Positions 223-13,679 of a stretch of DNA of 13,679 bases are shown here, one piece after another. The translations under genes were made by a program, and so were the position numbers. Below the pieces are notes generated by a model. That model made no database searches and was not told where the DNA came from. It was given only the letters and a program-made list of their open reading frames with translations. The number at the start of each line of letters is the position of its first letter. Position 1 is the stretch's first letter. Source of the stretch: Candidatus Aenigmatarchaeota archaeon (lineage in GTDB: Archaea; Aenigmatarchaeota; Aenigmatarchaeia; CG10238-14; SCSR01); contig JAWBTW010000004.1 of the NCBI GenBank assembly GCA_039000165.1, positions 48,520-62,198 on the forward strand, written 5' to 3'.

Positions 223-1590
223 TTAAGGTGGTTCTGGTGGTGGAGGTGGTGGAGGTGGAGGTAATGGGGGCTGAGGAGGTTGGGGTCCTGGGGGTGACGG
301 AGGCTGTGGCTGAGGAGGTGGCGACGCACACTCACATTCTCCGTCTATAGTGGAAGGGATAGCTTCTCCTAAACAATTTTTAGTACAATACACTTCCAAA
401 GGACAATCACATTCATAACCAGGATAAACCCAATAACATTCGCCAGACCCTGGAGGAATTTCTACGCATACTTTATCTACACCAGTTGGAATGTATCTAC
501 AAGACTCTGTTTTGTAGCAATCTAATTTTCTGAGATAAGTAGTAACATCAACCTTAAAAATCAATTGCTGAGGACCTTTCGGAGTAGAAACATAATATTT
601 TGTATCATTACAACCAAAAGTTACCTTTACTGCGCCTTTTACTTCAGCAAAGTATGCGCAAGTTCCGCTACATTCTTGTAAGCTTGCACAAGGCTTAGAA
701 AATGGTATTTTAACACAATCTTTGCACATAGGTGCATCTTTCCATTCTTTACAACCTTGATAATCTTCCTCTTCAGGGCAATCGCTTTTTCCATAAAAAC
801 AGCAGGAAATACTGTAGTAACACTTGACATAAGGGTCTGAAAATGTTCTTTCTAAATTCCTTACTTCCTCTTCTGCCATTTGGATTACTGCTGACAAAAA
901 TGGCAAACAATTGTTGCATCCTCCCATACCATTACAATAGCATATTTTTGACAGGTTTCCACACATATGTTGAATATAGTTCGGCCCGTAAGTTTTTGCC
1001 CACTCGCTAAACTTTCTGTACATATACCAAAATCTAAGTAAAGAAATTCTCTCTGTTAAATCTCCTAGAGAAGTAATGTTTTCTTCACCAAGTGATATAA
1101 AAATGTTGTTTCCTAAAGCAATAGTCTCAAAACTCTCGTCAAACTTTCCACTTTCAACTTCCTGTTGAGAAACTTTAAAATCAACACAACTTACTTCTGA
1201 AAGATTAACTTTCAATATATCTGACTGGTTGAAATTTTTAATGTAATAATTAATAAAGCGTAGAGTTTCATTCGACAAGAAAAACCTAACTTCTTCCACG
1301 CTTGGCACGTCTACCTGATTACAAATCCAGCTTCTAGGATAGTTTTCCCCTGTTTGAGATACTCCTCCTCTTTTCCCAACTTCACTTACTCCTGAATGAA
1401 CAGAAAAATGAAGGGAAATTCTTTCAAAAAATTTTACATAATCAAGGTAAATGGAAGCTTTAAAATAGCTTAAACTTTTAACAATACTTTCTCTAAACTC
1501 GAAGCTAATAAAGAAGAAGAAAATTAGAGAAATAATTCCTATCGCTACCATTACGCTTAATATTAGTAAGCTAGATTGAGACTTTACCAT
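223..1590 (-). CDS. Pilin-like surface protein (KSQ leader plus hydrophobic helix) with Cys-rich C-half and poly-Pro tail
   Basis: MVKSQ followed by the hydrophobic stretch SSLLILSVMVAIGIISLIFFFFISF; six N-x-S/T sequons; dense Cys in the C-terminal half; ends PPPQPQPPSPPGPQPPQPPLPPPPPPPPEPP; overlaps the upstream stop. Confidence 0.7.
   Translation of the reverse strand: MVKSQSSLLILSVMVAIGIISLIFFFFISFEFRESIVKSLSYFKASIYLDYVKFFERISLHFSVHSGVSEVGKRGGVSQTGENYPRSWICNQVDVPSVEEVRFFLSNETLRFINYYIKNFNQSDILKVNLSEVSCVDFKVSQQEVESGKFDESFETIALGNNIFISLGEENITSLGDLTERISLLRFWYMYRKFSEWAKTYGPNYIQHMCGNLSKICYCNGMGGCNNCLPFLSAVIQMAEEEVRNLERTFSDPYVKCYYSISCCFYGKSDCPEEEDYQGCKEWKDAPMCKDCVKIPFSKPCASLQECSGTCAYFAEVKGAVKVTFGCNDTKYYVSTPKGPQQLIFKVDVTTYLRKLDCYKTESCRYIPTGVDKVCVEIPPGSGECYWVYPGYECDCPLEVYCTKNCLGEAIPSTIDGECECASPPPQPQPPSPPGPQPPQPPLPPPPPPPPPEPP
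226..320 (-). repeat. Low-complexity proline-codon tract (GGW/GGN repeats on + strand)
   Basis: ggtggttctggtggtggaggtggtggaggtggagg...; GC-rich patch in an AT-rich window, encoding the poly-Pro tail. Confidence 0.9.
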
Positions 1591-2735
1591 ACTATCAGCT
1601 CTGAGTTAATCGTTTCACCCTCATAATTAGGGTATGGAAGCTTGATGGTAAAAGTGTAAATGTTTTTAGCCGAAGTTGGAGCTTCATAACCAAAAACTAT
1701 AGGTGGTTTTGAGGGAATAATTTTTATTATTTCTTCTACGGCTTCTGCAGGATTAACTACTTCTAAATCAAAATACTTTCCTTTACACTCGGTTGAAATG
1801 TTTTTAAGAGCATCGACTACTTTTTTCACTCCGCATAAATCACAGCTTCCTTGAGTTGGCTGGGGAGGAGAATAGGTTGGGTAGTAATACTCACACCATT
1901 GTTTCCATGCATTAACACAGCTATTTACACTAAAGTTTCCTTTTAAAGTAAAGATAGAAATGTTATGTTGTTTACATGCCTTTAGCCCATTATCAAAACT
2001 ATCTTGAAAATTGCCCATTTTATCGCTATCTGTACATATACAAACATCACTTCCTGTGGTTAGTTCGTCGGTTATTATTATTATCGCAGTTAAGTTAAGT
2101 TTTTCAGCTAAGCATTTAATTCCATTACCCCAATCTTCTTCAGTTTGCTTAAGAAGTGAACAACCAGTTAATTCAAAGCAGTCATCTTTAACTTTTGTGT
2201 TTTTAAATATTTCGCAACCCCAAGAAGAGCCTGCACCTTTAAGTGTGTATATCCTTATCTTTATTTTTTTCTTTAAGGCTATTAGGTTTATTTCTTCTAT
2301 CTTATCTTTTATAACATCTATTTCATCTTTTAAACTTCCTGAAGTGTCTAATAAAAAAGCGACATTAACCCATTCTTTTGGTACATAAACGATAAACTTC
2401 CAGTTTTTATCAAAATATCTCTCAAAAAATTGTGGCAAAATTTCAGAGACATTAATTACACCATAGCCTTCTCCGTAGTTAACAGTTAAATTTTCAGAAA
2501 CTACAGCATCAGAAACTATAGAAGCTAAAGACCTTTCTGTGCCGTAAATTTTAGAAGATTGGAAAGTAATAACTGCATCGCTCACTCTATTATAAATTTG
2601 CTCTCTAGTTAGCAATTCTTTTTGAGTTTCACTTATAGAAACATAACGAAAATAAAGAATTGAAAGAAGGATGGTTACACCAACCACAAGAACAAGTATT
2701 TCTACTATTTCTAAAGTTTGAGCTTTATGAAACAA
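1584..2735 (-). CDS. Prepilin-like protein (KA|Q) with vWA/MIDAS domain, putative adhesin
   Basis: TTG start preceded by GGAGG; MFHKAQ plus hydrophobic ILVLVVGVTILLSILYF; VAFLLDTSGSL (DxSxS at 2334-2348) and IIIITDE are vWA MIDAS elements; six N-x-S/T sequons. Confidence 0.8.
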   Translation of the reverse strand: MFHKAQTLEIVEILVLVVGVTILLSILYFRYVSISETQKELLTREQIYNRVSDAVITFQSSKIYGTERSLASIVSDAVVSENLTVNYGEGYGVINVSEILPQFFERYFDKNWKFIVYVPKEWVNVAFLLDTSGSLKDEIDVIKDKIEEINLIALKKKIKIRIYTLKGAGSSWGCEIFKNTKVKDDCFELTGCSLLKQTEEDWGNGIKCLAEKLNLTAIIIITDELTTGSDVCICTDSDKMGNFQDSFDNGLKACKQHNISIFTLKGNFSVNSCVNAWKQWCEYYYPTYSPPQPTQGSCDLCGVKKVVDALKNISTECKGKYFDLEVVNPAEAVEEIIKIIPSKPPIVFGYEAPTSAKNIYTFTIKLPYPNYEGETINSELIVW

Positions 2736-3492
2736 AAACTTCTCCTCCTATTTTCTTGATTGAAATTTCGTAACTTCCTGGTTTAAGTCTATCCATATGC
2801 GTTTTGCAATAGACTTTTCTACAAACTATTTTCGAGTATAGCTCCTGACAAATTCTATCTTCTTCGGCAACCAACGGATAAGAAGTAGTTATTCTTTGCC
2901 TTAAAGAAAAACCTGTATCGCATACTCTGTTTATTAAGCCAGCAAATTCTTCAAGCTCTCCTTTCACAACTTTTAATCTTAGCATTCCTGGTTGTAAAAA
3001 TGAAGAGTTTATTCTTATAGAAACAGGGAAAGATATTTCTACGGATTTTTTAAGTGCATTTCCTTCTGAAAAATTTTGAGAACCAAACCTCCATACTCTA
3101 CTATTTTGCTTAAAATTATGTATACTAGTGTCAATTTGCGATTCAAAAGATTCTATAAAAACTTCATAACCATAAGCGTAACTTTTTGCACATTCTGGTT
3201 CAATTTCTTTATACTTGGAAGAAAATTCCAAAATTTTATTTAAATCTAAAACTTTTTGGGTAACGTTAGAGAAAGTGTAAAAAAAACTGTTTTCTTCTTG
3301 GTATGCTAAGCAAGAAGAAGATGTTGTTAAAAGTTGCGAAATAGTTGTAGCTTTTTCTAACATTTCTAAGTCAGACATAAGCTGTGCATTAGTTTGGGTT
3401 ATTGAAGTTATTTGATTGATGAAAATTGAGATTACGATTAGGATTAACACTAGAAATATTCCTTTCATTAAAAAACTAAGCTGGGCTTTCAT
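2725..3492 (-). CDS. Prepilin-like protein (KA|Q class III signal)
   Basis: MKAQLSFLMKGIFLVLILIVISIFI; AGGAG upstream of the ATG; paired Cys; sequons NVT, NFS and NSS. Confidence 0.75.
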   Translation of the reverse strand: MKAQLSFLMKGIFLVLILIVISIFINQITSITQTNAQLMSDLEMLEKATTISQLLTTSSSCLAYQEENSFFYTFSNVTQKVLDLNKILEFSSKYKEIEPECAKSYAYGYEVFIESFESQIDTSIHNFKQNSRVWRFGSQNFSEGNALKKSVEISFPVSIRINSSFLQPGMLRLKVVKGELEEFAGLINRVCDTGFSLRQRITTSYPLVAEEDRICQELYSKIVCRKVYCKTHMDRLKPGSYEISIKKIGGEVFVS

Positions 3493-4120
3493 AACTTGCT
3501 CTCCTTGACTTCCACACGATAATAAAAATTAAAGCTAAGATTATAGCCACAACAACAAAATAAATGTATATAGAAAAAGATGGTGGTTTTATTTTACAAT
3601 CTTGAGGACAATTTTCATAATTTTCTTCTAAATTTTCTTCACAAACTCCATTCCCACAATGACAATCTAATGGGCAGTTTTCATAATTTTCGTACAATAA
3701 AGAATCGCAAGCTCCATCTCTGTTACACCATGCTATTTCAAACAAGAATATTTTTTTATCTTTGTGATAGATTTCAATTGTACTTGCATCCTCAATTAAA
3801 GGAAGTTTAAGTAAAAGTGGTGAAAACTCTCTTTCAAGAAGCATCGGGCCTTTATCTGTAGTTACATAAACTTCAAATATAACTCCCCCTAAAAATCGGT
3901 CGAAAAGTACTCTACCATTTTTATCTAAAATTTTAATAGAGTAGTTTGAGGATGAAGGAAAATCCGTAGGAATTCCTGAACCCAAAGAAAACTCTTTTAA
4001 AATTACTGTATCATTTTTATAAATTTCAAGAAAGAGTATGAATAGTGTTGGTCTATCTTTAGCAAAGGATAAAGTAGAAAATAAAATTGAAAATGTTAAA
4101 AATACTGCTAAAATTTTTAT
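3476..4120 (-). CDS. Secreted, C-terminally membrane-anchored protein with two CxxxGxCx(n)ENYENCPxDC repeats; start likely at ATA 4120 rather than TTG 3985
   Basis: The frame is open upstream of 3985 and reads (I/M)KILAVFLTFSILFSTLSFA|KDRPT..., a Sec-type signal peptide. Repeats CNRDGACDSLLYENYENCPLDC and CGNGVCEENLEENYENCPQDC; C-terminal TM IYIYFVVVAIILALIFIIVW followed by KSRR. Confidence 0.75.
   Translation of the reverse strand: MKILAVFLTFSILFSTLSFAKDRPTLFILFLEIYKNDTVILKEFSLGSGIPTDFPSSSNYSIKILDKNGRVLFDRFLGGVIFEVYVTTDKGPMLLEREFSPLLLKLPLIEDASTIEIYHKDKKIFLFEIAWCNRDGACDSLLYENYENCPLDCHCGNGVCEENLEENYENCPQDCKIKPPSFSIYIYFVVVAIILALIFIIVWKSRRASYESPA
3612..3691 (-). repeat. 14-nt direct repeat ttttcataattttc (3612-3625 and 3678-3691) within the ENYEN codons
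   Basis: Two copies 66 nt (22 codons) apart, consistent with an intragenic duplication. Confidence 0.85.
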
Positions 4121-4121
4121 A

Positions 4122-5540
4122 TCAACACCCCCTAAGGTATTGTGAGATTGAAGACAATTTTCCTCCGCAATAACTTATATCACCCTTCAGCCATTTAAAC
4201 GAGTCGTCAGAAAAATATTTCTGAGTGCCATAACACATTATGTATTCAGAGTTAAAAATATTTTGGTTTGGACATTTAGCTGGTCTGGCTAAATTACATT
4301 CATGACATAATTGTAAGGTATGACCAATCTCATGAGCAACTGTTCCTGCAGGATTGGGAGGACCACCTTGCGAAGCACAAATTGATTTATACCATGTAGC
4401 ACTAGCAAAACCATCCGTACAGCTATTCCAATCCCAAGGTCCGCATCCACAAATTATTCCACCAAAAAAAGGCCAACCGACCTTGCTTATGCCGACAATT
4501 TTATCCCAATTACCAATACCTAAGACAGTATTTACACACTCGATAGCCAAAGTTACACACTCGTCACACGGTGAACTACACTTTATTTGGCATTTTGGGT
4601 TTTGAGTTGGTGTTATTATCTTTAAATCTATTCTATCTGGGCAATTCCTAAAAGGACTTTTATCAACCCAGAATGGAAATGCATGTTTTTGGACAAAATC
4701 TAAATATTCTTTCTCATCTGAGAGGGTAGCATCAAAATTTAAAGGTACGTAAACTAATTTCCATTTTCCTATACATTCATTATCATATTCATTTTCATCC
4801 ATACACCTTGCTTCTCCATTTTTTGGATTTTCGCACCATTTTGGTTTATCTCCTGGGCAGCAATGTTTCTCTGAGCAGATTGGTTTATCAGAAGGGCAGC
4901 AAATATTTCCTTGAGAATCTCTCCATAAACCAGAATCTGTAGAACCTAAACAAACACTTTCAGCAGGACAAACAGGAGGATTATCGCATTGCTTACTAGA
5001 ATTCAGATACTTTGAACAACAAGCTAAAGAATCAGGAGCGTATTCTCCGTTAGGAGCACAATTTTGATTGCAAGTATATTTATCTTTTTGACCCCAACAA
5101 AAACCTGAACAACAAGCTAAAGAAAAATAACAAGCTTCATCATTTTCCAAACATCTTCCCATAATAAAAATCTTGTTTTCCATTTTGGCTATTGTAATTT
5201 TTTTACTATCTTCAAAAAAATTGCTAACTATTTCTGGCATTTGTTTTGAAAAGCTTGCTGTTTTGTTCAAGTTTTTATCATTAACAAAAACTGTATTATT
5301 TTCTATTTTAACGTAATATCTGACTAAAGGCGGGTAATAAACAAAAACTACATCTCCACTAGTTGCTATTGCTTTGTCTATTACAGCTTCTAAATCTTTA
5401 GCAAATATTACAACAACCTCTTCCTTAGCAATTTGTGTTTGAACGTTGTAGAAAGAGAGTAGTTGATAAACAGTTATGCCAGAAGCGACCAAAACTCCAA
5501 TTATTAATATCGTTTCTGTAATCCCAAACTGAGCTTTCAT
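4122..5540 (-). CDS. Prepilin-like protein (KA|Q) with Cys-knot repeats and a C-terminal metzincin-type zinc metalloprotease domain
   Basis: MKAQFGITETILIIGVLVASGITVY; HEIGHTLQLCH (4302-4334) followed by a Met-turn-like YIMCY; Cys-rich linker. Confidence 0.8.
   Translation of the reverse strand: MKAQFGITETILIIGVLVASGITVYQLLSFYNVQTQIAKEEVVVIFAKDLEAVIDKAIATSGDVVFVYYPPLVRYYVKIENNTVFVNDKNLNKTASFSKQMPEIVSNFFEDSKKITIAKMENKIFIMGRCLENDEACYFSLACCSGFCWGQKDKYTCNQNCAPNGEYAPDSLACCSKYLNSSKQCDNPPVCPAESVCLGSTDSGLWRDSQGNICCPSDKPICSEKHCCPGDKPKWCENPKNGEARCMDENEYDNECIGKWKLVYVPLNFDATLSDEKEYLDFVQKHAFPFWVDKSPFRNCPDRIDLKIITPTQNPKCQIKCSSPCDECVTLAIECVNTVLGIGNWDKIVGISKVGWPFFGGIICGCGPWDWNSCTDGFASATWYKSICASQGGPPNPAGTVAHEIGHTLQLCHECNLARPAKCPNQNIFNSEYIMCYGTQKYFSDDSFKWLKGDISYCGGKLSSISQYLRGC
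5013..5124 (-). repeat. 19-nt direct repeat tgaacaacaagctaaagaa (5013-5031 and 5106-5124) encoding SLACCS
   Basis: Exact copies 93 nt (31 codons) apart within the protease-pilin gene. Confidence 0.9.
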
Positions 5541-6040
5541 CTAATTGTTATATTGACTTTTTCGCTGCTTATTTTTTTAATTTCTAATTCGTATTCCTTA
5601 AAAGGGGCGCTCCCCAATATTTTGCTCACCGCAACCCAAATATCCTCTTTTTCTGGCAAAACTCCTAGATAAGGCATGGTTAAGTTACAATAAAGTTTTT
5701 GACATCTCAAATAATTTTCATCCTTAAACTGCAAGCATAAGTTATAACCAGAACTTAAATTTTGATTTTTAATTAAATCAACAACTTTTGCTAGAACCTT
5801 TTTTTCGTCTGTAGAGAAAACAACTCTTGTTTGGAAATCGAACCTATAACTTTTAATGATGGAATTGTTTAACTCTTGAACGCAAATAGAGTTTATATCA
5901 GTAAAAAGGTCTGAAAACTGGGACAAACTACTTTGTCTTTGTGAAAAATTAATAGTCGAAGAAATTAAATGATAAGCTATGGATAAAATTAAAATACTTA
6001 TAACGATTCCACCAACTATATAAACCCATACATCTGGCAT
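5537..6040 (-). CDS. Pilin-like protein with N-terminal hydrophobic helix and no basic leader
   Basis: MPDVWVYIVGGIVISILILSIAYHLI; in-frame TAA immediately before the ATG; four Cys; ATGA overlap with the next gene. Confidence 0.65.
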   Translation of the reverse strand: MPDVWVYIVGGIVISILILSIAYHLISSTINFSQRQSSLSQFSDLFTDINSICVQELNNSIIKSYRFDFQTRVVFSTDEKKVLAKVVDLIKNQNLSSGYNLCLQFKDENYLRCQKLYCNLTMPYLGVLPEKEDIWVAVSKILGSAPFKEYELEIKKISSEKVNITIR

Positions 6041-6068
6041 TTAATTTAAAAATAGCTTTTTTAGAATT

Positions 6069-7350: not shown

Positions 7351-7354
7351 GTTA

Positions 7355-9424
7355 TCACCAAAGTTTAATAGATAAACCTAAACTGTAAAACATAGCTAAG
7401 CCTACGAAGGAAATAACACCATAAACTATGATAGCAACCATTAAAGTTTTTCCTATCGTGTAATCTCTTGCAACTTTATCAAAGCCATTCTCTATTCCGC
7501 TCAAAAGCATAGAAAGCAATGCTACAGTTTCAACAGTGTAAATACCTATTGCTGCTTGAAGGACTGTAAGTGGAACTACTGTTTGAAAGCTTCCAATCAA
7601 AATATCTATGAAATTTTCTCCTGAAGGTAAAAGTCCTAAACCCAAACTTTTTTGTATTTCTGCAAATCTTGTAGCAAGAATTTTTAGAATATAAATTATA
7701 AAAATCGTTAAAGAACCAATAATTCCACAAATTATTGGAACTATAAAGCTTGCCTGAAGTCTTATTGCTGAGCGCGTGTTCTCTAGCAACTCTCTTATCT
7801 TAAGCTCAATCCTATGAACATTATCTAAATAATTTGAGATTGTTTTTGCTATAACCCCAAGCAAAACAGTGCTTTTTTCAGAAGCATCTGATAAAACTCT
7901 CATTATATCTTCTATAAGTCGAGATGGATAATACCTTAAAACTCCGTGCGCTTCGTCAAACAAAGCTTTCCTGAAGGTCATTCCAAAATTTCTTATGTTT
8001 ATCAAAAGTTTTGTGAAAAAAGAATGAATAGCTCTAGTTTTCATCCCAAGTTTTTGATATTCTTCCAAACTTTTGTTTATCGCAACCTCTATAGGCATAC
8101 CTTCTGATAAAAAGTTTCCGATAGTTACTAAGCCTGTTCTAAACTCATCTTCTATATTTTTTATCTCGTTTCTTATTTTAATTCTTTGAAAACTTCTTAG
8201 ATAGAAATATGAAATTACCATAGCAGCAAAGCCTGCGGTTATAGAAAAAGTTGAGAGTAAGTTTTCTAATGTAAGGTCTGCTTCTCTTTCAAGTATTACT
8301 TTTTTATCTTCCGCTACCGAAAGAGCAGTATAAAGGTCAACAAAATGTATAATTCCATAAAACATTATGAGTAAGCCTATAAGAATCGAGAAGAAAATTA
8401 TTGGAACGTAAACCTTGGCGCTCCCTAACTTCAACACAAAAAAATCTTCTCTTGGTAGTTCAGGATGCTTAGAAATATCTGGAGAAATGAAAGCTCCTGG
8501 TCTTTTCTTTAATATCCTGTATATGAAAAAAAGGTTTAGCAGGGGTAAAAGAACTGTGTAACCTAAAATTAATTGATAAACATTTACTTGCTGGTTGAGA
8601 AAAATGGCTATCATAGGAAACATAACTATACCAATAGCTGGTAACATTATGCCAAAAATATGGATTAGAGTTAAAGGAGAAGAAATTTCTTCAACATAAC
8701 TTCTCATTCTCTCGTGAGTTGACTCAAGAATGTAATTTAAAGCTTTTATTAGAGTAGCTTCTCTTCTTTCTTCTGTAGCCTCTCTTAAAGTTCCGTACAA
8801 TAAATTTAACGAACGAACAAAATCTTCGTTCCAAATTGCCCATTTTGGCATGTAATAGCTTAAGGCTTCTTCAACTGTTGTATACTTTCCAACTTGCAAA
8901 TCCCACATAGCTTTTTTCATATCGTTTGTTATTGGCCCAGAAATGTGAGTAGTGACAAAGTTAACAGCGCCTTCAAAAGTTGGATTAAGTTTTAAATAAA
9001 TAACCATGTACAAGATTATTTTTATTGATTCATCCCCTGCCTGAATCCTAATAACTTGGGAAAGAAATGAAGGGTAAGTCAAGATGTACCAAAAGATTAT
9101 AAAAGGTAAAATTGAAAGAAAAATTAAGGTTACAAAATCTTGAATTATCAAGGAAAACAAGGCAAAAACTATAAAGGAAAGGATAAGAGCAAGGATTGAA
9201 GAAGAAAAAACTCCTTCTGGGCTTGTTACGAGAGAAGAAAATGCTATATCTGTTTTAAGTTTTTCTTCCAAACTTTTTGGAGGTTTTATCCTTAACTTTT
9301 CTCCTATTTTACAAAACTTTTCGTAAAAAGTTTGTGGTTTTCTTGTTTTTTGCTCAGCTAAAAGGAAATCCAAGTATTCCTTGGAAAAATACTTTTTTTC
9401 CTCTTCTTTTTTCTTTCTTATCAT
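7355..9424 (-). CDS. Type IV pilus/T2SS-F family membrane platform protein (TadC/FlaJ-like, two domains)
   Basis: About 690 aa with several TM clusters and two cytoplasmic T2SSF-like segments (YLKLNPTFEGAV...GPITNDMKKAMWDL...EEAL and IGNFLSEGMPIEVAI...GMTFRKALFD). ATG at 9424; the TTG at 9427 is an alternative. Confidence 0.85.
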   Translation of the reverse strand: MIRKKKEEEKKYFSKEYLDFLLAEQKTRKPQTFYEKFCKIGEKLRIKPPKSLEEKLKTDIAFSSLVTSPEGVFSSSILALILSFIVFALFSLIIQDFVTLIFLSILPFIIFWYILTYPSFLSQVIRIQAGDESIKIILYMVIYLKLNPTFEGAVNFVTTHISGPITNDMKKAMWDLQVGKYTTVEEALSYYMPKWAIWNEDFVRSLNLLYGTLREATEERREATLIKALNYILESTHERMRSYVEEISSPLTLIHIFGIMLPAIGIVMFPMIAIFLNQQVNVYQLILGYTVLLPLLNLFFIYRILKKRPGAFISPDISKHPELPREDFFVLKLGSAKVYVPIIFFSILIGLLIMFYGIIHFVDLYTALSVAEDKKVILEREADLTLENLLSTFSITAGFAAMVISYFYLRSFQRIKIRNEIKNIEDEFRTGLVTIGNFLSEGMPIEVAINKSLEEYQKLGMKTRAIHSFFTKLLINIRNFGMTFRKALFDEAHGVLRYYPSRLIEDIMRVLSDASEKSTVLLGVIAKTISNYLDNVHRIELKIRELLENTRSAIRLQASFIVPIICGIIGSLTIFIIYILKILATRFAEIQKSLGLGLLPSGENFIDILIGSFQTVVPLTVLQAAIGIYTVETVALLSMLLSGIENGFDKVARDYTIGKTLMVAIIVYGVISFVGLAMFYSLGLSIKLW

Positions 9425-9451
9425 CAATTAATTTTTGGCTTTTTCTTGAAT

Positions 9452-9834: not shown

Positions 9835-9850
9835 CTTTAAAAGCTTTTCT
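9835..9850 (-). promoter_or_regulatory. Putative BRE-TATA promoter for alba in the divergent intergenic region
   Basis: Minus strand AGAAAAGC-TTTTAAAG: purine-rich BRE-like element followed by a TATA-like box, about 65 nt upstream of the ATG. The AT-rich background weakens the call. Confidence 0.45.
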
Positions 9851-9893
9851 TAATATTTTAAGTTTTCTCGAAGCAAAATAAAAAATAGAGAAA

Positions 9894-11300
9894 ATGGTAA
9901 AATGCCCTGTTTGTGATTCAGAGGCTACCCCTTATGTAACTTCAGAAGGCGAAAGAGGGTATGTTTGCTACCATTGTGGAAGTAGATGGAAAGAAACAAA
10001 ACCTGCTAAGAAGACTTCTACACTATCCTTTTTAGGATTTGCTGGAAAAAAAGGTGAGGAAAGCCAAACAGGAATTTTTTCCACCTCTATTCTTTTGAGG
10101 TTTTTAATTTTTCTCGCTGCTCTAATAGTTTCATCTATGCTGGTTCTGTTTTCACTTTTAGGGATGATTCAAAAAGAAATTGCAAAACTCTTCCCAGATT
10201 TCCCAACCTTACAGTATCTTCCTTATGTAGTATTTTTTCTCTTAACAGCTTACGCAGCTCATAAGCTTGCGAAAAAAAGTTTTGTTAGTGGTTTAATTTA
10301 TTGTTTTATCTTAATAATCATTTTAATTCTTGGTAGCGCATTGATAATAGAGCTGCCAAAAATTTTTCCAGGTTGGGCCAATCAAACTATTATCCCTAGT
10401 GATAACAAAGACACAATACCGCAAGCTATAAAAGAAGGTGGGTATTATACTTTTAATTTTAAATGGGGTAGTGAAGAAACCGAGTTCGAAAAAAAGTTTC
10501 CAAGACCTTTCAGGAAAGATAGCGAAACAATTTATACTTACAGCTTTCCTGTTACAATAGAAAACCCAAGTAGAAAGAAGAGTATAAAAGATTTTTACTT
10601 TTTAGAAACAACTGGCTTGTACAACACTTCTGACATGCTGTTCCATAAACTTTATCCAAATTTATGCACTGAAGATAAAAAGTGTGAAATAGCTCCTTTA
10701 GATAATTTGTTAATTACCTTAGATAGTAAAGGTGAAATAAGCTACAAATTCAATACCATAAGAATTAAAGTTTATACAAGTTTGTCTTCTGCAAGTTTTG
10801 GAAACAATACTTTTGTTTTTGTTAGATCCTTAGACGATGAAAAGATTGCACCAACTTATAAGCCTTACACAGGAGAAGGGCCTATTGATATAACTGTTTA
10901 CTTTGCCCCTGTCAGGTATAACTTTGGTTATATGACTGACGAAAAAATAAGAGTTTTTATCCAACTAAGAAATAGAGGCGACGGAACAGGAAAAATTAGT
11001 AAGATATATTTAACAAGAATCGGAAGCCTAGAACTTCTTGAAAAGCCTCAAACCTGCGAAGGTGTAGGCGGAGAGTATCCTCTTTCTTCCCTAGACGAAA
11101 GGAACGAATACTTTGAATTTGTTTCACCTTGGACATTAGCCTCATCTCCCCTCGTTTTTTTCTGTGATTATAGTATACCAGAAAAAATAAGAACAGAGAA
11201 AATATCTTCTCCTTTCGAAACAGTAGCTTTTGTAGTAAGCGTTGAATACACTTATGAAAGAATGCACGAAAAGGAAGTTAGGGCTATGGTTCCAACTTAG
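9894..11300 (+). CDS. Membrane protein: N-terminal zinc ribbon, about 3 TM helices, large extracellular beta-rich domain
   Basis: CPVC-x17-CYHCGSRWKE; three hydrophobic segments; C-terminal domain with alternating hydrophobic strands (FPVTIENP, IRVFIQLRNRGDG, FVVSVEYTY) and sequons NQT, NTS and NNT. Confidence 0.7.
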   Translation: MVKCPVCDSEATPYVTSEGERGYVCYHCGSRWKETKPAKKTSTLSFLGFAGKKGEESQTGIFSTSILLRFLIFLAALIVSSMLVLFSLLGMIQKEIAKLFPDFPTLQYLPYVVFFLLTAYAAHKLAKKSFVSGLIYCFILIIILILGSALIIELPKIFPGWANQTIIPSDNKDTIPQAIKEGGYYTFNFKWGSEETEFEKKFPRPFRKDSETIYTYSFPVTIENPSRKKSIKDFYFLETTGLYNTSDMLFHKLYPNLCTEDKKCEIAPLDNLLITLDSKGEISYKFNTIRIKVYTSLSSASFGNNTFVFVRSLDDEKIAPTYKPYTGEGPIDITVYFAPVRYNFGYMTDEKIRVFIQLRNRGDGTGKISKIYLTRIGSLELLEKPQTCEGVGGEYPLSSLDERNEYFEFVSPWTLASSPLVFFCDYSIPEKIRTEKISSPFETVAFVVSVEYTYERMHEKEVRAMVPT

Positions 11301-11331
11301 GTTTTTATTTAAAGAAAATAAAATTTTTAAT

Positions 11332-12057
11332 ATGGGAAAAGGCGACATTTCTCTAACTGCTATTATTTTTATTGTTTGCGGCATAGCAGTTTTTATTTTT
11401 GCTGCTGCTTGGGTTTTTAAAGTTCCTGGACTTTTTGGTCAGCTGTTGGGTTATATACAAACTGGTTTGATAGCTGTTGGTTCAACAATTTTAGATTTTT
11501 TAATGAAGATTTTTGGAAAATACTTTAGTGCTTTTGCCACGGCTCTGGGGGTAACTTTGAATGTTATTCTCCCAACATTAACTTTACAAGCAGTCTGGCC
11601 AGCTTTGAGTAGTGCTTTGAGTAGAGGTTGGCACATCTTAACTCAAACACATTTTTATGTGGGAAAAACTTTCTTTCAATCAAACTTTTTAGGGCGATGG
11701 AAATTAAGGCTAACAACATTGTGGAAATATTTCAAATCAGGAATAAGCAGACAGGCTATTATAAGCGGTATTAAAAACTTGATTAAAGTTTCTAGTACTA
11801 TGTTTTTTGTCAGCTTAGGTGCCGAGTTAATTTTAACCCATTTAGGCGTTCCTCAATGGATAGATAGTCTGAACTTGCCTGGACAAGGCTTTACTGTAGG
11901 GGGTTTTTCTTGGTCCTGGGGAAGTGCAATTACAGCTGCTGGAAGCACAGCTTTAGGTTTAGGTGTAGTAGCAGCGCTAAACTGGTGGAACCCTGTTGGT
12001 TGGGCAGCTGGTCTTATGATTGCTGGTTCATTCATAATAGGTGGTTTCATTCATTAG
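11332..12057 (+). CDS. Prepilin-like (KG|D) hydrophobic protein with amphipathic helices and a Gly-rich C-terminal hairpin; paralog 1
   Basis: True start probably ATG 11332 (MGKG|DISLTAIIFIVCGIAVFIFAAAW), which avoids overlap with the upstream gene; C-terminal AAGSTALGLGVVAALNWWNPVGWAAGLMIAGSFIIGGFIH. Confidence 0.75.
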   Translation: MGKGDISLTAIIFIVCGIAVFIFAAAWVFKVPGLFGQLLGYIQTGLIAVGSTILDFLMKIFGKYFSAFATALGVTLNVILPTLTLQAVWPALSSALSRGWHILTQTHFYVGKTFFQSNFLGRWKLRLTTLWKYFKSGISRQAIISGIKNLIKVSSTMFFVSLGAELILTHLGVPQWIDSLNLPGQGFTVGGFSWSWGSAITAAGSTALGLGVVAALNWWNPVGWAAGLMIAGSFIIGGFIH

Positions 12058-12841
12058 AGAAAAAAAATTTAACAAAGGTGACGTTAGCCTAGCAGCAATA
12101 ATAGCACTTTTTCTCGGAATTTTAATTTTTGTTGTCATGGTTGGTTATGCTTTCAAAATTCCTGGTTTAGGAGGACAGTATCTTGGGTATGTTTACAATG
12201 CTTTAAGCTTCGCTCTTTCAACTATTTGGGATTTTCTAGGAAAATTAATTGCACCTTTTATTAAAGAAGTACAAAAAGCTACTATCTGGGCTTTCTTAAC
12301 TGTAGGTATAACTCTTCCAGCTGTTATATCAATCAAGTATCTTTTAACTCACGGAGTTACACTCACATGGAAACAGGCTGTAAGAAATTTGTTCAAAATA
12401 TCTTTTTGGAAAGATGTAGGAAGTGCAGTAAAATCAAGTATTTCACACTGGTGGAGTAATGTAAAAGCTGCTTTTTCTTCAGGAATTTGGAAAGGAATAA
12501 AGTATGTAGGAAAATCTTTAATTACAAACGCCTGGAAAATAGCAACAGGTTTTGTCGTCGGCATGTGTGTTGAAATAGGAGTAACTTTCGCCTTAGATTA
12601 TCTGAGTTACAGCTTAGTTGGAAAAGGTTTTGCTCAAGCTATAAATGATATACTACCAGGAGGTGGAGTTTATCAAATTGGCGCAGTAAGTATTTCAGTA
12701 GGGCATGGCGTACAATCAGCAATCTCAGGAGCTGCTTCAGGTGCAGTGATAGGTGCTATGTTTGGTGGACCAATTGGCGCTGTAGTAGGTGCTGCTATTG
12801 GTGGGTTGGTTGGGCTCTTTACTGGCCTTTTCTTCCATTAG
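12041..12841 (+). CDS. Prepilin-like (KG|D) hydrophobic protein with glycine zipper; paralog 2
   Basis: KKFNKG|DVSLAAIIALFLGILIFVVMVG; FKIPGLGGQYLGY aligns with FKVPGLFGQLLGY of paralog 1; C-terminal GAASGAVIGAMFGGPIGAVVGAAIGGLVGLFTG. Confidence 0.78.
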   Translation: MVSFIREKKFNKGDVSLAAIIALFLGILIFVVMVGYAFKIPGLGGQYLGYVYNALSFALSTIWDFLGKLIAPFIKEVQKATIWAFLTVGITLPAVISIKYLLTHGVTLTWKQAVRNLFKISFWKDVGSAVKSSISHWWSNVKAAFSSGIWKGIKYVGKSLITNAWKIATGFVVGMCVEIGVTFALDYLSYSLVGKGFAQAINDILPGGGVYQIGAVSISVGHGVQSAISGAASGAVIGAMFGGPIGAVVGAAIGGLVGLFTGLFFH

Positions 12842-12872
12842 CTTAAAATAAAAGGAAAAATAAAATTTAATT

Positions 12873-13304
12873 ATGAAAGGAGATATGCCTATAGCTTATG
12901 TAGTTGCGTTGATACTAGGAATTGCAGTACTAGTGGCTTTAGGCTATTGGTTCTACACAACCGGAGGAAGACTAGGTCCTACCATATCGCAACAAGATTG
13001 CACAAGAGCTTTCCAACAACATTGTGAGGAATGGAAAAACTCAGGGTTTCTTGACCCAATGCCAGTAAAAGTAAGATGTACTGACTCGACAGCAAGAGCA
13101 TTGAAAAATGTTAACTACGGAGATGAGAGGGGAGACGCATGCCAGATATGTGGTTGTCAAGATACAACAAATTGTGGTGGCTGCTCTGGTAATTGGGCAA
13201 CCGTATACCTTGATGTCTCATCAGGCCAATGGTGGAATTATATAGCTCCAGGCTGTGCAGAAGCCTACGGAATTGAGATTAAGACTACATCAGACTGCGG
13301 ATAG
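12873..13304 (+). CDS. Prepilin (KG|D) with Cys-rich globular head
   Basis: MKG|DMPIAYVVALILGIAVLVALGYWFY; CTRAFQQHCEEW motif; ten Cys. Confidence 0.8.
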   Translation: MKGDMPIAYVVALILGIAVLVALGYWFYTTGGRLGPTISQQDCTRAFQQHCEEWKNSGFLDPMPVKVRCTDSTARALKNVNYGDERGDACQICGCQDTTNCGGCSGNWATVYLDVSSGQWWNYIAPGCAEAYGIEIKTTSDCG

Positions 13305-13326
13305 ACAAACTCAAATGTGAAAAACA

Positions 13327-13647
13327 ATGAAAAAAGGCTTGGCAATTCCAATCTATGTAGTAGTGTTAGTTCTATTGATAGGAATTATTGCAGTCGCGGC
13401 TATAACCATAATAATGAGCTGGCTTTCAGCAAACCGATGTATTGGTTTACAATCTTCTTGTGCTAATGCAAGAATCATGTTTTGTGAAAAATGGCATGAC
13501 CAATGTAGTGATTTTAACTGTAATGAACCAGAATGGGATAGTAGTTTAAAAACATGCGAACTAACAGAAACAGGAAAAGGAACTCAAGAAGTAGCTTGTA
13601 CAAAACCTAATGCAACAGAATGTTCGGAAGCCTTTAAGGAAGATTGA
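13327..13647 (+). CDS. Prepilin (KG|L) with Cys-rich head
   Basis: MKKG|LAIPIYVVVLVLLIGIIAVAAITII; CANARIMFCEKW motif; eight Cys. Confidence 0.8.
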   Translation: MKKGLAIPIYVVVLVLLIGIIAVAAITIIMSWLSANRCIGLQSSCANARIMFCEKWHDQCSDFNCNEPEWDSSLKTCELTETGKGTQEVACTKPNATECSEAFKED

Positions 13648-13648
13648 A

Positions 13649-13679
13649 ATGAAAGCACAAGCAAAAATTGTTGATATGC
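13649..13679 (+). CDS. Start of another probable prepilin (MKAQ...), truncated by the window end
   Basis: ATG 1 nt after the previous stop: MKAQAKIVDM. It has the same MKAQ leader as two minus-arm genes; the hydrophobic segment is not visible. Confidence 0.55.
   Translation, partial: MKAQAKIVDM

What the first reader, a model, noticed from the sequence alone, without database searches (positions are those of the whole stretch)
223..13679. Divergent type IV pilus-like locus whose pilins carry adhesion, protease and membrane-insertion cargo: candidate DPANN host-contact apparatus
Seen in sequence: one TadC/FlaJ-like platform and about 13 genes with class III-like or pilin-like N-termini in two tightly coupled divergent arms. 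Their C-terminal cargoes are a vWA MIDAS domain, knottin plus metzincin protease, Cys-rich plus poly-Pro, and Gly-rich hairpins. Established: archaeal TFF subunits use [KR][GA]|hydrophobic leaders, and many DPANN archaea are ectosymbionts needing host attachment. Inference: a single filament or tip complex could bind the host, cut its S-layer and insert into its membrane.
Basis: partly seen in the sequence, partly recalled or inferred. Interest (0 to 1): 0.85.

Follow-up and report, generated by a model that had tools for sequence, protein, structure and literature searches.

The report
Enzyme- and adhesin-carrying pilins, DPANN archaeon
A tiny hot-spring archaeon of a probably host-dependent group carries a large pilus-type gene cluster in which pilus-subunit "handles" are fused to sticky domains and to cutting enzymes that are swapped like cassettes between close relatives, which makes them good candidates for the tools it uses on other cells or on polymers.

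Summary
The window is the middle 13.7 kb of a ~21.5 kb type IV filament (T4F) cluster in a 0.78 Mb Aenigmatarchaeota (DPANN) genome.

**Core parts**
- The 690-aa protein is a divergent two-domain FlaJ/TadC platform.
- Nine window genes have K/R-[G/A/S]-then-hydrophobic (class III-like) N-termini, and three more have hydrophobic N-termini without that motif.
- The ATPase, a second platform, two tiny Flp-like pilins and a lectin pilin lie just outside the window. The prepilin peptidase is on another contig.

**Cargo**
- Predicted structures show a long pilin-type N-helix followed by a vWA domain (Z 13.4) or a metzincin-like domain (Z 9.3).
- The "knottin" label could not be verified.

**New here**
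- The ten-gene minus arm keeps its order down to 36% platform identity.
- The hydrolase carrier is fused in relatives to metzincin, papain, gingipain-type, M23, M14, lytic transglycosylase, amidase or glycosidase modules. Carriers 93-97% identical bear unrelated cargo.
- vWA moves between two neighbouring pilins.

**Not supported**
- The Gly-zipper "membrane insertion" genes are not conserved (1 of 66 genomes).
- Host contact and S-layer cutting are untested inference.

It is a new variant of bacterial modular pilins. This scan noted the same kind of locus before in another Aenigmarchaeota genome (e1-5720513).

The parts
7355..9427 (-). 690-aa polytopic platform protein, a divergent two-domain FlaJ/TadC (T2SSF) paralogue and first gene of the minus-arm operon
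   Evidence: It is 32% identical over 663 aa to the 636-aa platform beside the ATPase. Seven of 26 family members hit PF00482, in two regions, about 136-275 and 434-568. The window protein itself has no Pfam hit. The family was found in 198 of 201 genomes sampled from the phylum.
6967..7332 (-). 121-aa small protein with an N-terminal hydrophobic helix and no K/R-G/A motif; conserved head-module gene
   Evidence: Orthologues directly follow the platform in L018, L020, L021 and in L027-L032.
6476..6970 (-). 164-aa pilin-like protein with a K-G leader then a hydrophobic helix; the most conserved small subunit
   Evidence: It is a strict regex hit. Orthologues lie in 16 of the 20 loci fetched and in six of the eight loci.
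6069..6476 (-). 135-aa Cys-rich pilin-like protein with a degenerate leader here
   Evidence: Orthologues begin with an M-K-G leader followed by a hydrophobic stretch. The gene order is conserved.
5537..6040 (-). 167-aa protein with a conserved M-P-E/D start and an N-terminal helix; always precedes the hydrolase carrier
   Evidence: Alignment A4. It is adjacent to the carrier in L027, L028, L030, L031, L032, L034, L039 and L043. A similar N-terminus is itself fused to a papain module in P0198.
4122..5540 (-). 472-aa modular pilin: K-A leader, pilin module (1-129), Cys-rich linker (130-256), metzincin-like module (257-472)
   Evidence: The model shows helix 3-59 plus a sheet at 64-129. VIA-align gives Z 9.3-7 to metzincins over residues 256-472 and Z 4.4 to pilin PilA4 over 6-100. 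H403, E404, H407 and E414 are invariant. Pfam Reprolysin_5 E is 1.7e-4, below the cut-off.
3476..4120 (-). Type I membrane protein, about 214 aa if started at ATA 4120 (listed ORF 3476-3985): Sec-type signal peptide, Cys-rich repeats, C-terminal membrane helix. Not a pilin.
   Evidence: The frame is open upstream to the stop of the 472-aa gene. Orthologues have N-terminal signal peptides and align from their residue ~52. The membrane helix is at 139-157 of the listed ORF.
2725..3492 (-). 255-aa pilin-like protein with a K-A leader; in some relatives this position carries an inserted canonical vWA domain
   Evidence: Regex hit. Orthologues in L028, L030 and L043 are 455-467 aa with VWA-family Pfam hits: PF00092 E 3.7e-12 and 8.9e-13 in L028 and L030, and PF13519 (VWA_2) E 4.5e-8 in L043.
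1584..2735 (-). 383-aa modular pilin: K-A leader, N-helix 4-60, small pilin module, vWA domain 121-343 with MIDAS, closing strands 346-382
   Evidence: Model pLDDT is 82.7. All top 50 VIA-align rows are vWA domains, Z 13.4-10.1, including S. sanguinis PilB at Z 10.6. D130, S132, S134 and D223 are invariant. Short orthologues (139-161 aa) lack the insert.
223..1590 (-). 455-aa pilin-like protein (K-S leader), Cys-rich (28 Cys), with a poly-Pro C-terminal tail; last gene of the operon
   Evidence: It has no known family. Orthologues sit at the operon end in 8 loci. The poly-Pro tail is present only in the L027 and L032 orthologues.
9894..11300 (+). 468-aa membrane protein: weak zinc-ribbon-like N-terminus, two membrane helices, outside domain; first gene of the variable plus arm
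   Evidence: Zinc-ribbon Pfam hits are weak, E 0.036-0.042. Membrane helices are at 71-89 and 134-152. It is 67% identical in L018 but has only a weak N-terminal match in same-genus G082.
11332..12057 (+). 241-aa protein (from its internal Met) with a K-G leader, five hydrophobic segments and a Gly-rich C-terminus; paralogue of the next gene
   Evidence: It is 34% identical to the 266-aa gene.
12041..12841 (+). 266-aa protein with a K-G leader, five hydrophobic segments and a C-terminal Gly-zipper
   Evidence: PF13441 at 30.7 bits, over the cut-off. It was found in 1 of 66 genomes of the order, its own, and in L018 at 69% identity.
12873..13304 (+). 143-aa Cys-rich pilin-like protein with a K-G leader
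13327..13647 (+). 106-aa Cys-rich pilin-like protein with a K-K-G leader
   Evidence: Read. The regex missed it. The helix is at 11-29.

Best explanation
The window is the central part of a type IV filament (pilus or pseudopilus) cluster of an Aenigmatarchaeota (DPANN) archaeon. The cluster is built to display functional modules on pilin-like carriers.

**Shown**
- Ten genes form a conserved operon. A second, divergent FlaJ/TadC-type platform is followed by small pilin-like subunits and three large 'modular pilins'.
- The modular pilins are a hydrolase carrier (metzincin-like here), a vWA/MIDAS carrier and a Cys-rich, poly-Pro protein.
- A divergent, highly variable arm of further pilin-like genes runs on past the window. 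It leads to a lectin (LamG) pilin, two tiny Flp-like pilins, the first platform and the only nearby assembly ATPase.
- One A24 prepilin peptidase is encoded elsewhere.

**Inferred mechanism**
- The peptidase cuts after K/R-[G/A/S].
- The ATPase, working through either platform, lifts the subunits out of the membrane.
- The bulky modular pilins, with their small partners, form a tip or short-fibre complex. This holds adhesion modules (vWA here, lectin next door) and a hydrolase out from the cell.
- There they bind and locally digest a foreign surface, most likely the envelope of another cell.

**Shown about variation**
- The cargo is exchanged by recombination at the carrier/linker border.
- The platform plus pilin set next to the ATPase is replaced wholesale between species of one genus.
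- Inferred from this: the exposed parts are under pressure to diversify, as expected for contact with varying targets.
For: **T4F parts**
- The ATPase lies at C4:68054-70303. It hits PF00437 at E 2.8e-13 and matches PDB GspE2, CpaF and FlaI.
- The two platforms are 32% identical, and T2SSF hits occur in 7 of 26 family members.
- There is one A24 peptidase.
- Twelve of the 38 class III-like regex hits in the genome fall in this cluster.

**Predicted pilin architecture**
- The models show N-helices of 57 residues followed by a sheet.
- Matches to PilA4, FimU and PilA5 are weak, at Z 4.1-4.4.

**Cargo**
- vWA reaches Z 13.4 and includes the modular pilin PilB, 7b7p, at Z 10.6.
- Metzincins fill 28 of the top 29 rows, Z 9.3-5.0; the one exception, a chaperone-substrate complex at rank 5, was not identified.
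- The LamG pilin hits at E 3.8e-19.

**Co-conservation**
- The full gene order is kept in 5 of the 20 fetched loci and largely in 4 more, at platform identity 89% down to 36%.
- In L041 a g690-type platform, the ATPase and an x636-type platform are adjacent.

**Cargo swapping**
- Of 52 carrier relatives scanned, 28 have a Pfam cargo. These are C1 in 7, C25 in 4, reprolysin-like in 5, M23 in 2, SLT in 6, M14 in 2, amidase_2 in 1, glycosidases in 4 and transglutaminase core in 1, with some proteins combining two.
- P0132, P0144 and P0145 carriers are 93-97% identical over 220 aa, yet carry zinc, C25 and C1 cargo that do not align with each other.
- Cargo class changes 14 times among 34 labelled rows of the carrier tree.
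- vWA sits in the 255-aa position in L028, L030 and L043, and a beta-propeller sits in the 383-aa position in L030.

**Population data**
- A 44-kb contig of a hot-spring run matches window 1-3668 and 4772-5789 but not 3668-4772. The break falls exactly at residue 256/257 of the carrier.

**Cassette replacement**
- In same-genus G082 the ATPase is 98.7% identical. Its adjacent platform is only 34.7% identical, and of the ten ORFs between the zinc-ribbon gene and that platform only two give weak matches (24% and 31% identity) to genes of the window's cluster.
Against: - No evidence of expression, leader cleavage or a filament.
- No major pilin is obvious inside the window. The best candidates, of 44 and 67 aa, lie outside it.
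- The 690-aa protein itself has no Pfam hit. A profile comparison with one bona fide T2SSF protein of the genome was weak: hhalign probability 1.9, E 0.025.
- The pilin-fold matches are weak (Z about 4).
- Pfam Pilin_N and archaellin models find nothing in the locus.
- The metzincin model has mean pLDDT 63, and the window protein has Gln where metzincins have Gly.
- A K/R-G/A leader followed by a helix could serve merely as a membrane anchor.
- Murein-type cargo in relatives does not fit an archaeal host with an S-layer.
- The lifestyle of Aenigmatarchaeota is only inferred (PMC8407114, passages read).
- The join between the window and the ATPase side runs across a 98-N scaffold gap.
Confidence: 0.55

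Rival explanations
1. A surface 'digestion platform' for scavenging. As in the Sulfolobus bindosome, class III leaders recruit proteins to a short pilus-like scaffold. Here those proteins are hydrolases and binders that break down free proteins, cell-wall debris and polysaccharides for a cell that cannot make its own building blocks. No living host is involved.
For: - Cargo in relatives spans proteases, murein hydrolases and glycosidases, a spectrum typical of polymer degradation.
- Aenigmatarchaeota lack amino-acid and nucleotide synthesis and encode many peptidases (PMC8407114, passages read).
- Sivabalasarma and Albers propose T4F machineries functionalised for substrate scavenging (PMC13705601, abstract and sections 7, 11 and 21 read).
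Against: - No substrate-binding protein or transporter gene showed up in the Pfam scans of the locus ORFs.
- Few amino-acid transporters are reported for the phylum (PMC8407114).
- Rapid cassette exchange on near-identical carriers, and wholesale replacement of platform plus pilins within a genus, look more like an arms race than bulk nutrition.
- vWA and lectin modules are typical adhesins.
Confidence: 0.2
2. Plain membrane-anchored ectoproteins. The K/R-G/A leader plus helix is only a signal anchor, cleaved or not. The proteins stay in the cell's own membrane, and their position next to platform genes reflects shared regulation of surface genes, not assembly into a fibre.
For: - No archaeal pilin family model matches any of them.
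- Three members lack the canonical leader.
- The 169-aa neighbour is an ordinary Sec-type membrane protein.
- The Gly-zipper pair looks polytopic.
Against: - A dedicated second platform heads the operon and is kept with it down to 36% identity.
- The models show 57-residue N-helices packed on a sheet, the pilin 'lollipop'.
- A Glu near the start of the carrier helix is nearly invariant, in at least 90% of sequences.
- The vWA is inserted into a small pilin scaffold, as in S. sanguinis PilB.
Confidence: 0.13
3. An ordinary adhesion pilus whose enzymes act on the cell's own envelope. The hydrolase opens the S-layer locally so that the fibre can pass, and vWA anchors the base, as proposed for TadG.
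For: - PMC13705601 (section 20, passage read) suggests that some T4F accessory proteins may prime the cell wall for filament passage.
- PMC4858521 (passage read) cites TadG-type vWA proteins as pilus anchors.
Against: - Cargo classes change between close relatives that should share one envelope type.
- Murein hydrolases (SLT, M23, amidase_2) have no substrate in an archaeal envelope.
- The enzyme sits on a pilin carrier behind a long Cys-rich linker, which points outward.
Confidence: 0.07

Closest known systems
Modular type IV pilins of bacteria (Streptococcus sanguinis PilB with a vWA module and PilC with a concanavalin-A-like lectin module; survey by Raynaud et al. 2021, PMC8179133, passages read; PilA-PilC complex, PMC9934059, listing only)
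   Same: - A class III leader and a small pilin module carry a grafted functional module.
- The same two adhesion modules occur in this cluster: vWA (which matches PilB 7b7p at Z 10.6) and Laminin_G_3 lectin.
- A small non-modular partner gene lies next to the modular one.
   Different: - The host is an archaeon with archaeal-type leaders (K/R at -2), and the proteins do not belong to the bacterial N-methylation family used in that survey, which has no mention of archaea.
- The main novelty is a carrier with enzymatic cargo of at least seven hydrolase classes, exchanged between near-identical carriers. The survey lists only one peptidase-type signature (IPR030392).
- Nothing here has been tested by experiment.
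Archaeal T4F systems as classified by Makarova et al. 2016 (PMC4858521) and Sivabalasarma and Albers 2026 (PMC13705601), including the Epd-like 'system 1' common in DPANN
   Same: - The core parts match: an ATPase, a platform and a class III peptidase shared from elsewhere in the genome.
- Different pilin sets combine with conserved ATPase/TadC pairs.
- Surface peptidases are listed as accessory genes of system 1 (PMC13705601, S1 Table, searched).
   Different: - The platform here is one fused two-domain protein, present twice around a single ATPase. It is not the split pair of system 1, which this genome has at three other loci.
- The paper states that DPANN rarely show an ordered locus with pilins. 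This cluster holds about 20 pilin-like genes in 21.5 kb.
- Enzymes fused to pilin carriers are not described in the passages and tables I searched.
DPANN 'dark matter' pilus islands noted by Makarova, Wolf and Koonin 2019 (PMC6393860, passage on Fig. 2A read)
   Same: DPANN islands with FlaI, TadC and many unannotated signal-peptide proteins, predicted to be diverse pilins.
   Different: That note is generic. In the text I read it gives no cargo domains, second platform, conserved operon order or cassette exchange. The figure itself is not held.
Sulfolobus bindosome (Bas system; as summarised in PMC3387779 and PMC13705601, passages read)
   Same: Non-pilin functional proteins carry class III leaders and depend on a T4F-type ATPase and platform for surface function.
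   Different: The cargo there is sugar-binding proteins that feed ABC transporters. Here it is adhesins and hydrolases, with no transporter in the locus.
Pilin-tethered zinc protease in an Omnitrophota bacterium, and a pilin-cargo locus in another Aenigmarchaeota genome
   Same: The same idea of a pilin carrier with enzyme cargo. The second note describes swappable adhesion and hydrolase domains and two platforms in the same phylum.
   Different: They concern other DNA, and their details were not visible to me. The present report adds the population-level break point, the carrier tree and the within-genus replacement of platform plus pilins.

Membership tests
Type IV filament (T4F) system | Secretion ATPase of the PilB/FlaI/GspE (T2SSE) family in the locus | tested here: met
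   A 749-aa protein at C4:68054-70303, 10 kb beyond the platform and outside the window. It hits PF00437 at E 2.8e-13 and matches PDB 2oap, CpaF and FlaI. The link to the window crosses a 98-N scaffold gap. The same spacing pattern is seen in G082 and G024.
Type IV filament (T4F) system | Polytopic platform protein of the T2SSF/FlaJ/TadC family | tested here: met
   Met at family level: 7 of 26 aligned members hit PF00482, best E 4.5e-9, in two regions. The window protein itself scores nothing. hhalign to one genomic T2SSF protein was weak, and no PDB sequence matched.
Type IV filament (T4F) system | Class III (A24) prepilin peptidase in the genome | tested here: met
   There is one match, at C1:70668-71024, E 3.4e-12. 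The 292-aa ORF hits PF01478 at E 1.5e-8.
Type IV filament (T4F) system | Subunits with a class III signal peptide that is cleaved, and an N-terminal hydrophobic alpha-helix | tested here: inconclusive
   The motif is present in 9 window genes. A long N-helix is predicted in both proteins modelled. Cleavage itself cannot be tested with these tools.
Type IV filament (T4F) system | An assembled filament | not testable with these tools
   This needs microscopy or proteomics of an enrichment.
Modular type IV pilins (sensu Raynaud et al. 2021) | Pilin module (alpha-1 helix plus beta-sheet) joined to an independent functional module | tested here: met
   In the 383-aa protein, helix 4-60 is followed by a vWA at 121-343 inserted before the closing strands, and short orthologues lack the insert. 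In the 472-aa protein, helix 3-59 and a sheet at 64-129 are followed by a linker and a metzincin-like module. These are predicted structures only.
vWA domain with MIDAS | Rossmann-like vWA fold and a DxSxS ... D metal site | tested here: met
   Z is 13.4 to 4fx5 (rmsd 3.0, 151 aligned), and all 50 rows listed are vWA domains. D130, S132, S134 and D223 are invariant in 10 sequences. Pfam gives only E 0.05. Metal binding was not tested.
Metzincin metallopeptidases | HExxHxxGxx[H/D] zinc site, a Met-turn and the metzincin fold | tested here: inconclusive
   H403, E404, H407 and an H/D at 413 are conserved, and an I-M-C turn is present in most of the 13 sequences. The fold gives Z 9.3 (4df9), 8.4, 7.8 and so on, with 28 of the top 29 rows metallopeptidases. 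The window protein has Gln in place of the motif Gly, Pfam scores fall below cut-off, and mean model pLDDT is 63.
Knottin (cystine knot) | A compact three-disulfide knotted fold | tested here: inconclusive
   The Cys-rich stretch 130-256 has conserved Cys columns. It was modelled at pLDDT about 30 for residues 130-204 and matched no solved fold.
Archaellum | Archaellin (PF01917) genes | tested here: not met
   There were 0 matches at E <= 1 in the genome, which is 91.6% complete.
Epd-like / Tad-like 'system 1' pilus | Platform split into two genes (TadB/TadC-like) beside the ATPase | tested here: not met
   Here each platform is a single 636-690 aa two-domain protein. The split pairs lie at three other loci, on C2, C3 and C5.
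Bindosome-type display (Bas) | Class III leaders on substrate-binding proteins linked to ABC transporters | tested here: not met
   No substrate-binding or ABC transporter family appeared in the Pfam scans of the locus ORFs.

The most novel reading that the evidence does not exclude
The hydrolase carrier is the business end of a DPANN contact organelle, and its cassette decides which cells can be attacked. Proteases would serve against S-layer-clad archaea, SLT/M23/amidase modules against bacteria with murein, and transglutaminase-fold modules possibly against pseudomurein. Recombination at the linker would let close strains switch or widen their host range. The paired replacement of platform and pilin set around an unchanged ATPase would be a second level of the same diversification.
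Probability: 0.2. Interest if true: 0.88.

Novelty: new variant of a known kind. Interest (0 to 1): 0.66.

Why it matters
How DPANN archaea hold on to other cells and get through their envelopes is an open question, and no molecular tool for it is established in most lineages.

This cluster offers named, testable candidates:
- a conserved operon with its own platform;
- vWA and lectin modules for binding;
- an enzyme module that evolution keeps replacing while it preserves the carrier.

It extends the 'modular pilin' idea from bacterial adhesins to archaea and to catalytic cargo.

It also shows that arCOG- and Pfam-based pilus finders can miss such loci. The platform scores nothing in Pfam, and no pilin family matches.

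The catalytic domains can be expressed and tested on envelopes of co-occurring organisms without culturing the archaeon.

Tried and rejected
**Searches and tests that gave nothing usable**
- Complex prediction of the 167-aa protein with the carrier module (residues 1-130): no verdict, score 0.00 in both runs, controls not run. It counts neither for nor against binding.
- Expression: no RNA holder was listed among the 9 runs that hold the stretch, so nothing can be said on transcription.
- PDB sequence search with the platform profile: 0 matches at E <= 1.
- hhalign of the platform profile against one genomic T2SSF protein: probability 1.9, E 0.025, although the aligned piece is the start of the second domain.
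- Foldseek of the 472-aa model against PDB: no match at E <= 0.001, best ADAM33 at E 4.8e-3. VIA-align was used instead.
- Atlas look-up of the 455-aa protein: only unnamed Aenigmatarchaeota and Nanobdellota clusters.
- Atlas look-up of the unknown cargo of P0126 (residues 257-529): best scores 0.85, to transglutaminase-like, DUF553 and Pei families. This is a lead only.
- NCBIfam: nothing beyond Alba and PCMT.
- Searches of earlier findings by sequence and by relatives returned nothing.

**Ideas considered and dropped**
- That the cluster is an archaellum: no archaellin.
- That the T2SSE hit on C11 is a spare pilus ATPase: it is a PIN-ATPase-KH protein.
- That the Gly-zipper pair is a conserved part of the apparatus: found in 1 of 66 genomes.

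**Errors corrected**
- A script index error was rerun.
- A wrong reference with stop codons was dropped and replaced by the right ORF.

**Literature searches for prior description**
- Searches.
- Passages read in PMC13705601, PMC6393860, PMC4858521, PMC8179133, PMC8407114, PMC9563170 and PMC3387779.
- None describes hydrolases fused to archaeal pilin carriers.
- Figures are not held, and supplementary file 7 of PMC13705601 could not be read.

Full report
**What is in the window**

The window (13,679 bases, G+C 0.30-0.41) is C4:48520-62198 of a 783-kb, 25-contig genome rated 91.6% complete. Runs of N bound it on both sides. ORF listing gives three groups of genes:
- a minus-strand block of ten tightly packed genes (223-9427);
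- an Alba gene (9482-9772; TIGR00285, E 2.5e-37);
- a divergent plus-strand block of five genes (9894-13647).

A fragment of a protein-isoaspartate methyltransferase gene sits at 1-177.

Pfam and NCBIfam name almost nothing. Twelve of the 17 proteins have no Pfam family at E <= 0.01. The exceptions are Alba, PCMT, a Gly-zipper in the 266-aa protein (30.7 bits, over cut-off) and sub-threshold reprolysin hits in the 472-aa protein.

**Who it is**

Eight relatives of the 690-aa protein were found in species genomes. Six record titles read Aenigmatarchaeota MAG, one Woesearchaeota and one 'uncultured Methanosarcinales' MAG. The stretch occurs in hot-spring metagenome runs of three studies. This agrees with earlier notes of the scan on this genome.

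**Is it a type IV filament locus?**

- **ATPase.** The window holds none. On the same scaffold, past a 98-N gap, the plus arm continues with four more pilin-like genes. It then meets a minus-strand set: a 303-aa pilin-like protein, a 636-aa polytopic protein and a 749-aa ATPase. The ATPase hits T2SSE at E 2.8e-13 and matches solved GspE2, CpaF and FlaI.
- **Platforms.** The 636-aa protein has two weak T2SSF matches (E 8e-4 and 1.6e-3). It is 32% identical over 663 residues to the window's 690-aa protein. The 690-aa protein has no Pfam hit even at E 10. Seven of 26 aligned family members hit T2SSF, and no other family is shared by more than one member. The hits fall in two regions, about 136-275 and 434-568. 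The protein is therefore a divergent two-domain FlaJ/TadC-type platform. A PDB profile search found nothing, and hhalign to one genomic T2SSF protein was weak.
- **Distribution of the platform family.** It is in 198 of 201 genomes sampled from the phylum. Most have one copy, and genomes of the window's order often have two.
- **Peptidase.** One A24 prepilin peptidase is encoded on contig 1, next to ribosomal genes.
- **Other T4F loci.** The genome has three further ATPase loci with split platforms, on C2, C3 and C5. A fifth T2SSE-like hit is a PIN-ATPase-KH protein.
- **Not an archaellum.** No archaellin model matches anywhere in the genome. The archaeal Pilin_N model matches only weakly, and on other contigs.

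**The N-termini**

For archaeal class III leaders the residues at -2, -1 and +1 matter most, with a positive charge at -2 (PMC3387779, passage read).

A relaxed pattern requiring a hydrophobic 16-mer after the cut hit 38 of 906 crude ORF calls genome-wide. Twelve real genes of this cluster are among them, 8 in the window. One further hit is an antisense ORF over the PCMT fragment, which I discount. By length about 0.8 would be expected.

- The 106-aa gene, and the 303-aa gene outside the window, were missed by the pattern but have K-G followed by a hydrophobic helix.
- The 135-aa gene has a degenerate leader, while its orthologues have K-G.
- The 121- and 167-aa genes have only a hydrophobic N-helix.
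- The 169-aa ORF is not a pilin. Its frame is open upstream to one base after the stop of the preceding gene. Read from an ATA codon, it gains a Sec-type signal peptide like its orthologues, and it ends in a membrane helix.
- The 468-aa protein has a weak zinc-ribbon match (E about 0.04, below cut-off) and two membrane helices.

**The cargo**

*383-aa protein.* With 10 sequences, AlphaFold2 gave mean pLDDT 82.7. The model has a helix at 4-60, a small alpha/beta module, a domain at 121-343 and closing strands at 346-382.
- An all-against-representatives structural search returned only vWA domains in its 50 listed rows. Z was 13.4 for 4fx5 (rmsd 3.0, 151 aligned).
- The rows include the S. sanguinis modular pilin PilB (7b7p, Z 10.6) and other pilus-tip adhesins.
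- D130, S132, S134 and D223 are invariant.
- Short orthologues of 139-161 aa align to residues 1-120. In the one case (L028) where the C-terminal end also aligns, it matches the last 44 residues, so the vWA is an insert in a small pilin scaffold.

*472-aa protein.* With 13 sequences, mean pLDDT was 63. The carrier part is well modelled: helix 3-59 and a sheet at 64-129, pLDDT 70-87. The Cys-rich stretch 130-204 is poorly modelled (about 30), and the C-terminal domain is fair.
- Residues 256-472 match metallopeptidases in 28 of the top 29 rows (Z 9.3-5.0). These include BF3526 at Z 9.3 (rmsd 4.3, 178 aligned), an IgA peptidase at 8.4, fragilysin at 7.8, and ADAMs, ADAMTS and archaemetzincin at about 7. 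The exception is rank 5, 6o38, a chaperone-substrate complex that I did not identify.
- Residues 1-105 match type IV pilins weakly, at Z 4.1-4.4.
- H403, E404, G406, H407, C412 and E414 are invariant. The third ligand position holds H or D, and an I-M-C turn follows in most sequences.
- The window protein has Gln where the metzincin motif has Gly.
- I could not confirm a knottin.

*Other proteins.*
- The 455-aa protein has 28 Cys and a tail with 25 Pro in its last 50 residues. Only its two closest orthologue groups share the tail, and it has no known family.
- The 303-aa pilin just outside the window carries a Laminin_G_3 lectin domain (E 3.8e-19).

**Conservation and variation**

*Gene order.* In the eight loci and twenty further regions fetched around platform orthologues, the order is: platform, 121, 164, 135, extra pilins, 167, hydrolase carrier, 169, 255, 383, 455.
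- It is complete in L027, L028, L030, L031 and L032.
- It is largely kept in L034, L039, L040 and L043, at platform identity 89% down to 36%.
- The remaining eleven loci keep only the head module, are cut by contig ends, or hold the other platform type.
- In L041 a g690-type platform, a 164-like gene, the ATPase and an x636-type platform are adjacent.

*Cargo is not conserved.*
- Canonical vWA (PF00092, E about 1e-12) sits in the 255-aa position in L028 and L030, and a VWA_2 match (E 4.5e-8) in L043.
- The 383-aa position holds a beta-propeller in L030.
- The carrier position holds papain in L031, and M14 plus SLT in L034.

*Carrier relatives.* A search of 1.84 billion representatives with carrier residues 1-256 found 74 proteins at E <= 0.001.
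- I scanned 52 of them. Fifteen shorter than 220 aa and seven already scanned were left out.
- Twenty-eight had a Pfam cargo: C1 in 7, reprolysin-like in 5, C25 in 4, glycosidases in 4, SLT in 6 (two of them with M14, one with M23, one with a reprolysin-like domain), M23 in 2, amidase_2 in 1 and transglutaminase core in 1.
- Twenty-four had none.
- Some of these hits share only the Cys-rich linker and have another N-terminus.

*Carrier tree.* On a quick tree of 52 carrier modules, 34 labelled rows in 7 cargo classes need at least 14 changes. Five hundred label shuffles needed 15-20, so there is some inheritance but frequent exchange. Rows without the carrier core motif or under 300 aa were left out. 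Support is SH-aLRT only, and several branches are long.

*The clearest case.* P0132, P0144 and P0145 are 93-97% identical over their first 220 residues. They carry zinc, C25 and C1 modules that do not align with each other. P0126 is 91% identical to the window protein over residues 1-256 and unrelated after that.

**Within the genus and in populations**

Compared with same-genus genome G082:
- The 455-, 383- and 255-aa proteins are 98-99% identical, and Alba 100%.
- The 169-, 472-, 135- and 121-aa proteins are only 63-68% identical.
- The ATPase is 98.7% identical and its two divergent neighbours 98-100%.
- The platform beside it is only 34.7% identical. Of the ten ORFs between the zinc-ribbon gene and that platform, only two give weak matches (24% and 31% identity) to genes of the window's cluster.

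Platform and pilin set have therefore been replaced as a unit around a fixed ATPase.

Contigs of four hot-spring runs were laid on the window. One 44-kb contig matches 1-3668 with 37 differences and 4772-5789 with 51, but not 3668-4772 and nothing past 9774. The break at 4772 is the codon boundary between carrier residue 256 and the cargo.

The Gly-zipper gene was found in 1 of 66 genomes of the order, its own, and in one same-genus contig, L018. It is a strain-level accessory.

**What it most likely does**

*Shown.* This is a T4F-type cluster with two fused platforms, one ATPase and about twenty pilin-like genes. At least four of these are modular (hydrolase, vWA, lectin and Cys/Pro). The gene order is conserved and the cargo is exchangeable.

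*Inferred.* The carriers are processed by the A24 peptidase. They are then assembled, with their small partners, into a tip complex or short fibre that presents binding modules and an enzyme to a foreign surface.
- The bulky modules fit a tip position, as argued for bacterial modular pilins (PMC8179133, discussion read).
- Two tiny Flp-like ORFs next to the outside platform are the best candidates for a shaft subunit.

*The target is open.* Proteases fit S-layers. SLT, M23 and amidase modules fit bacterial murein. Glycosidases fit polysaccharides.

I rate host- or prey-envelope contact above free-polymer scavenging because of the adhesin modules and the fast turnover of the exposed parts. The difference is not large.

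**Known or new**

- Modular pilins with vWA and lectin modules are established in bacteria (PMC8179133). That survey used a bacterial signature and does not mention archaea.
- DPANN pilus islands full of unannotated pilins were noted generically (PMC6393860).
- The 2026 census of archaeal T4F reports that DPANN rarely show ordered loci and assigns most to the split-platform system 1. Its tables list Aenigmatarchaeota hits by arCOG only (PMC13705601: sections 7 and 11, passages from other sections and supplements searched).
- My six literature searches found no description of hydrolases on archaeal pilin carriers. Figures and one supplementary file could not be read.
- This scan has noted the same kind of locus in another Aenigmarchaeota genome (e1-5720513).

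I file it as a new variant of a known kind.

Noticed in passing
window 1-177 and C4:47783-48696 (outside the window): The same stretch of about 30 residues of the PCMT gene appears on both sides of the N run at C4:48421-48519. The gap therefore joins overlapping contig ends, which is an assembly artefact and not missing sequence.
   Followed up: partly
window 9482-9772: The Alba chromatin-protein gene travels with the operon. It lies upstream of the platform here and in L018, L027 and L028, and downstream of the last operon gene in L030 and L031.
   Followed up: partly
window 4118-4124: The 169-aa ORF most likely starts at a non-canonical ATA codon, one base after the TGA stop of the 472-aa gene. 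This start gives it the Sec-type signal peptide that its orthologues have.
   Followed up: yes
L026 (C4:65808-66150, outside the window): Two tiny ORFs (44 and 67 aa) with M-K-G leaders and a single hydrophobic helix lie between the 636-aa platform and the lectin pilin. They are Flp/Epd-like candidates for a major pilin. Similar 60-75 aa ORFs sit beside the platform in G082 and G093.
   Followed up: partly
G085:C8:189943-193689 and G048:C12:10926-14708: The ATPase orthologues lie in single open frames of 1264-1266 aa. The match is split at about residue 544 by roughly 1.5 kb of extra coding sequence, which looks like an intein.
   Followed up: no
L026 8048-9156 (C4:70344-71452): Two genes divergent from the ATPase are conserved with it in G082, G093 and G024. 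One is a 131-aa coiled-coil protein. The other is a 223-aa protein with a weak three-helix N-terminal match. They may be cytoplasmic accessory parts of the machine.
   Followed up: no
whole genome G000: Four T4F loci (C2, C3, C5 with split platforms; C4 with fused platforms) lie in a 783-kb genome, with a single prepilin peptidase. This is a large share of a reduced genome spent on surface filaments.
   Followed up: partly
L034 1457-3946 and P0189, P0199: Some carrier orthologues bear two enzymes in one chain: a lytic transglycosylase followed by an M14 carboxypeptidase. That combination would be expected to cut both the glycan and the peptide of murein.
   Followed up: no
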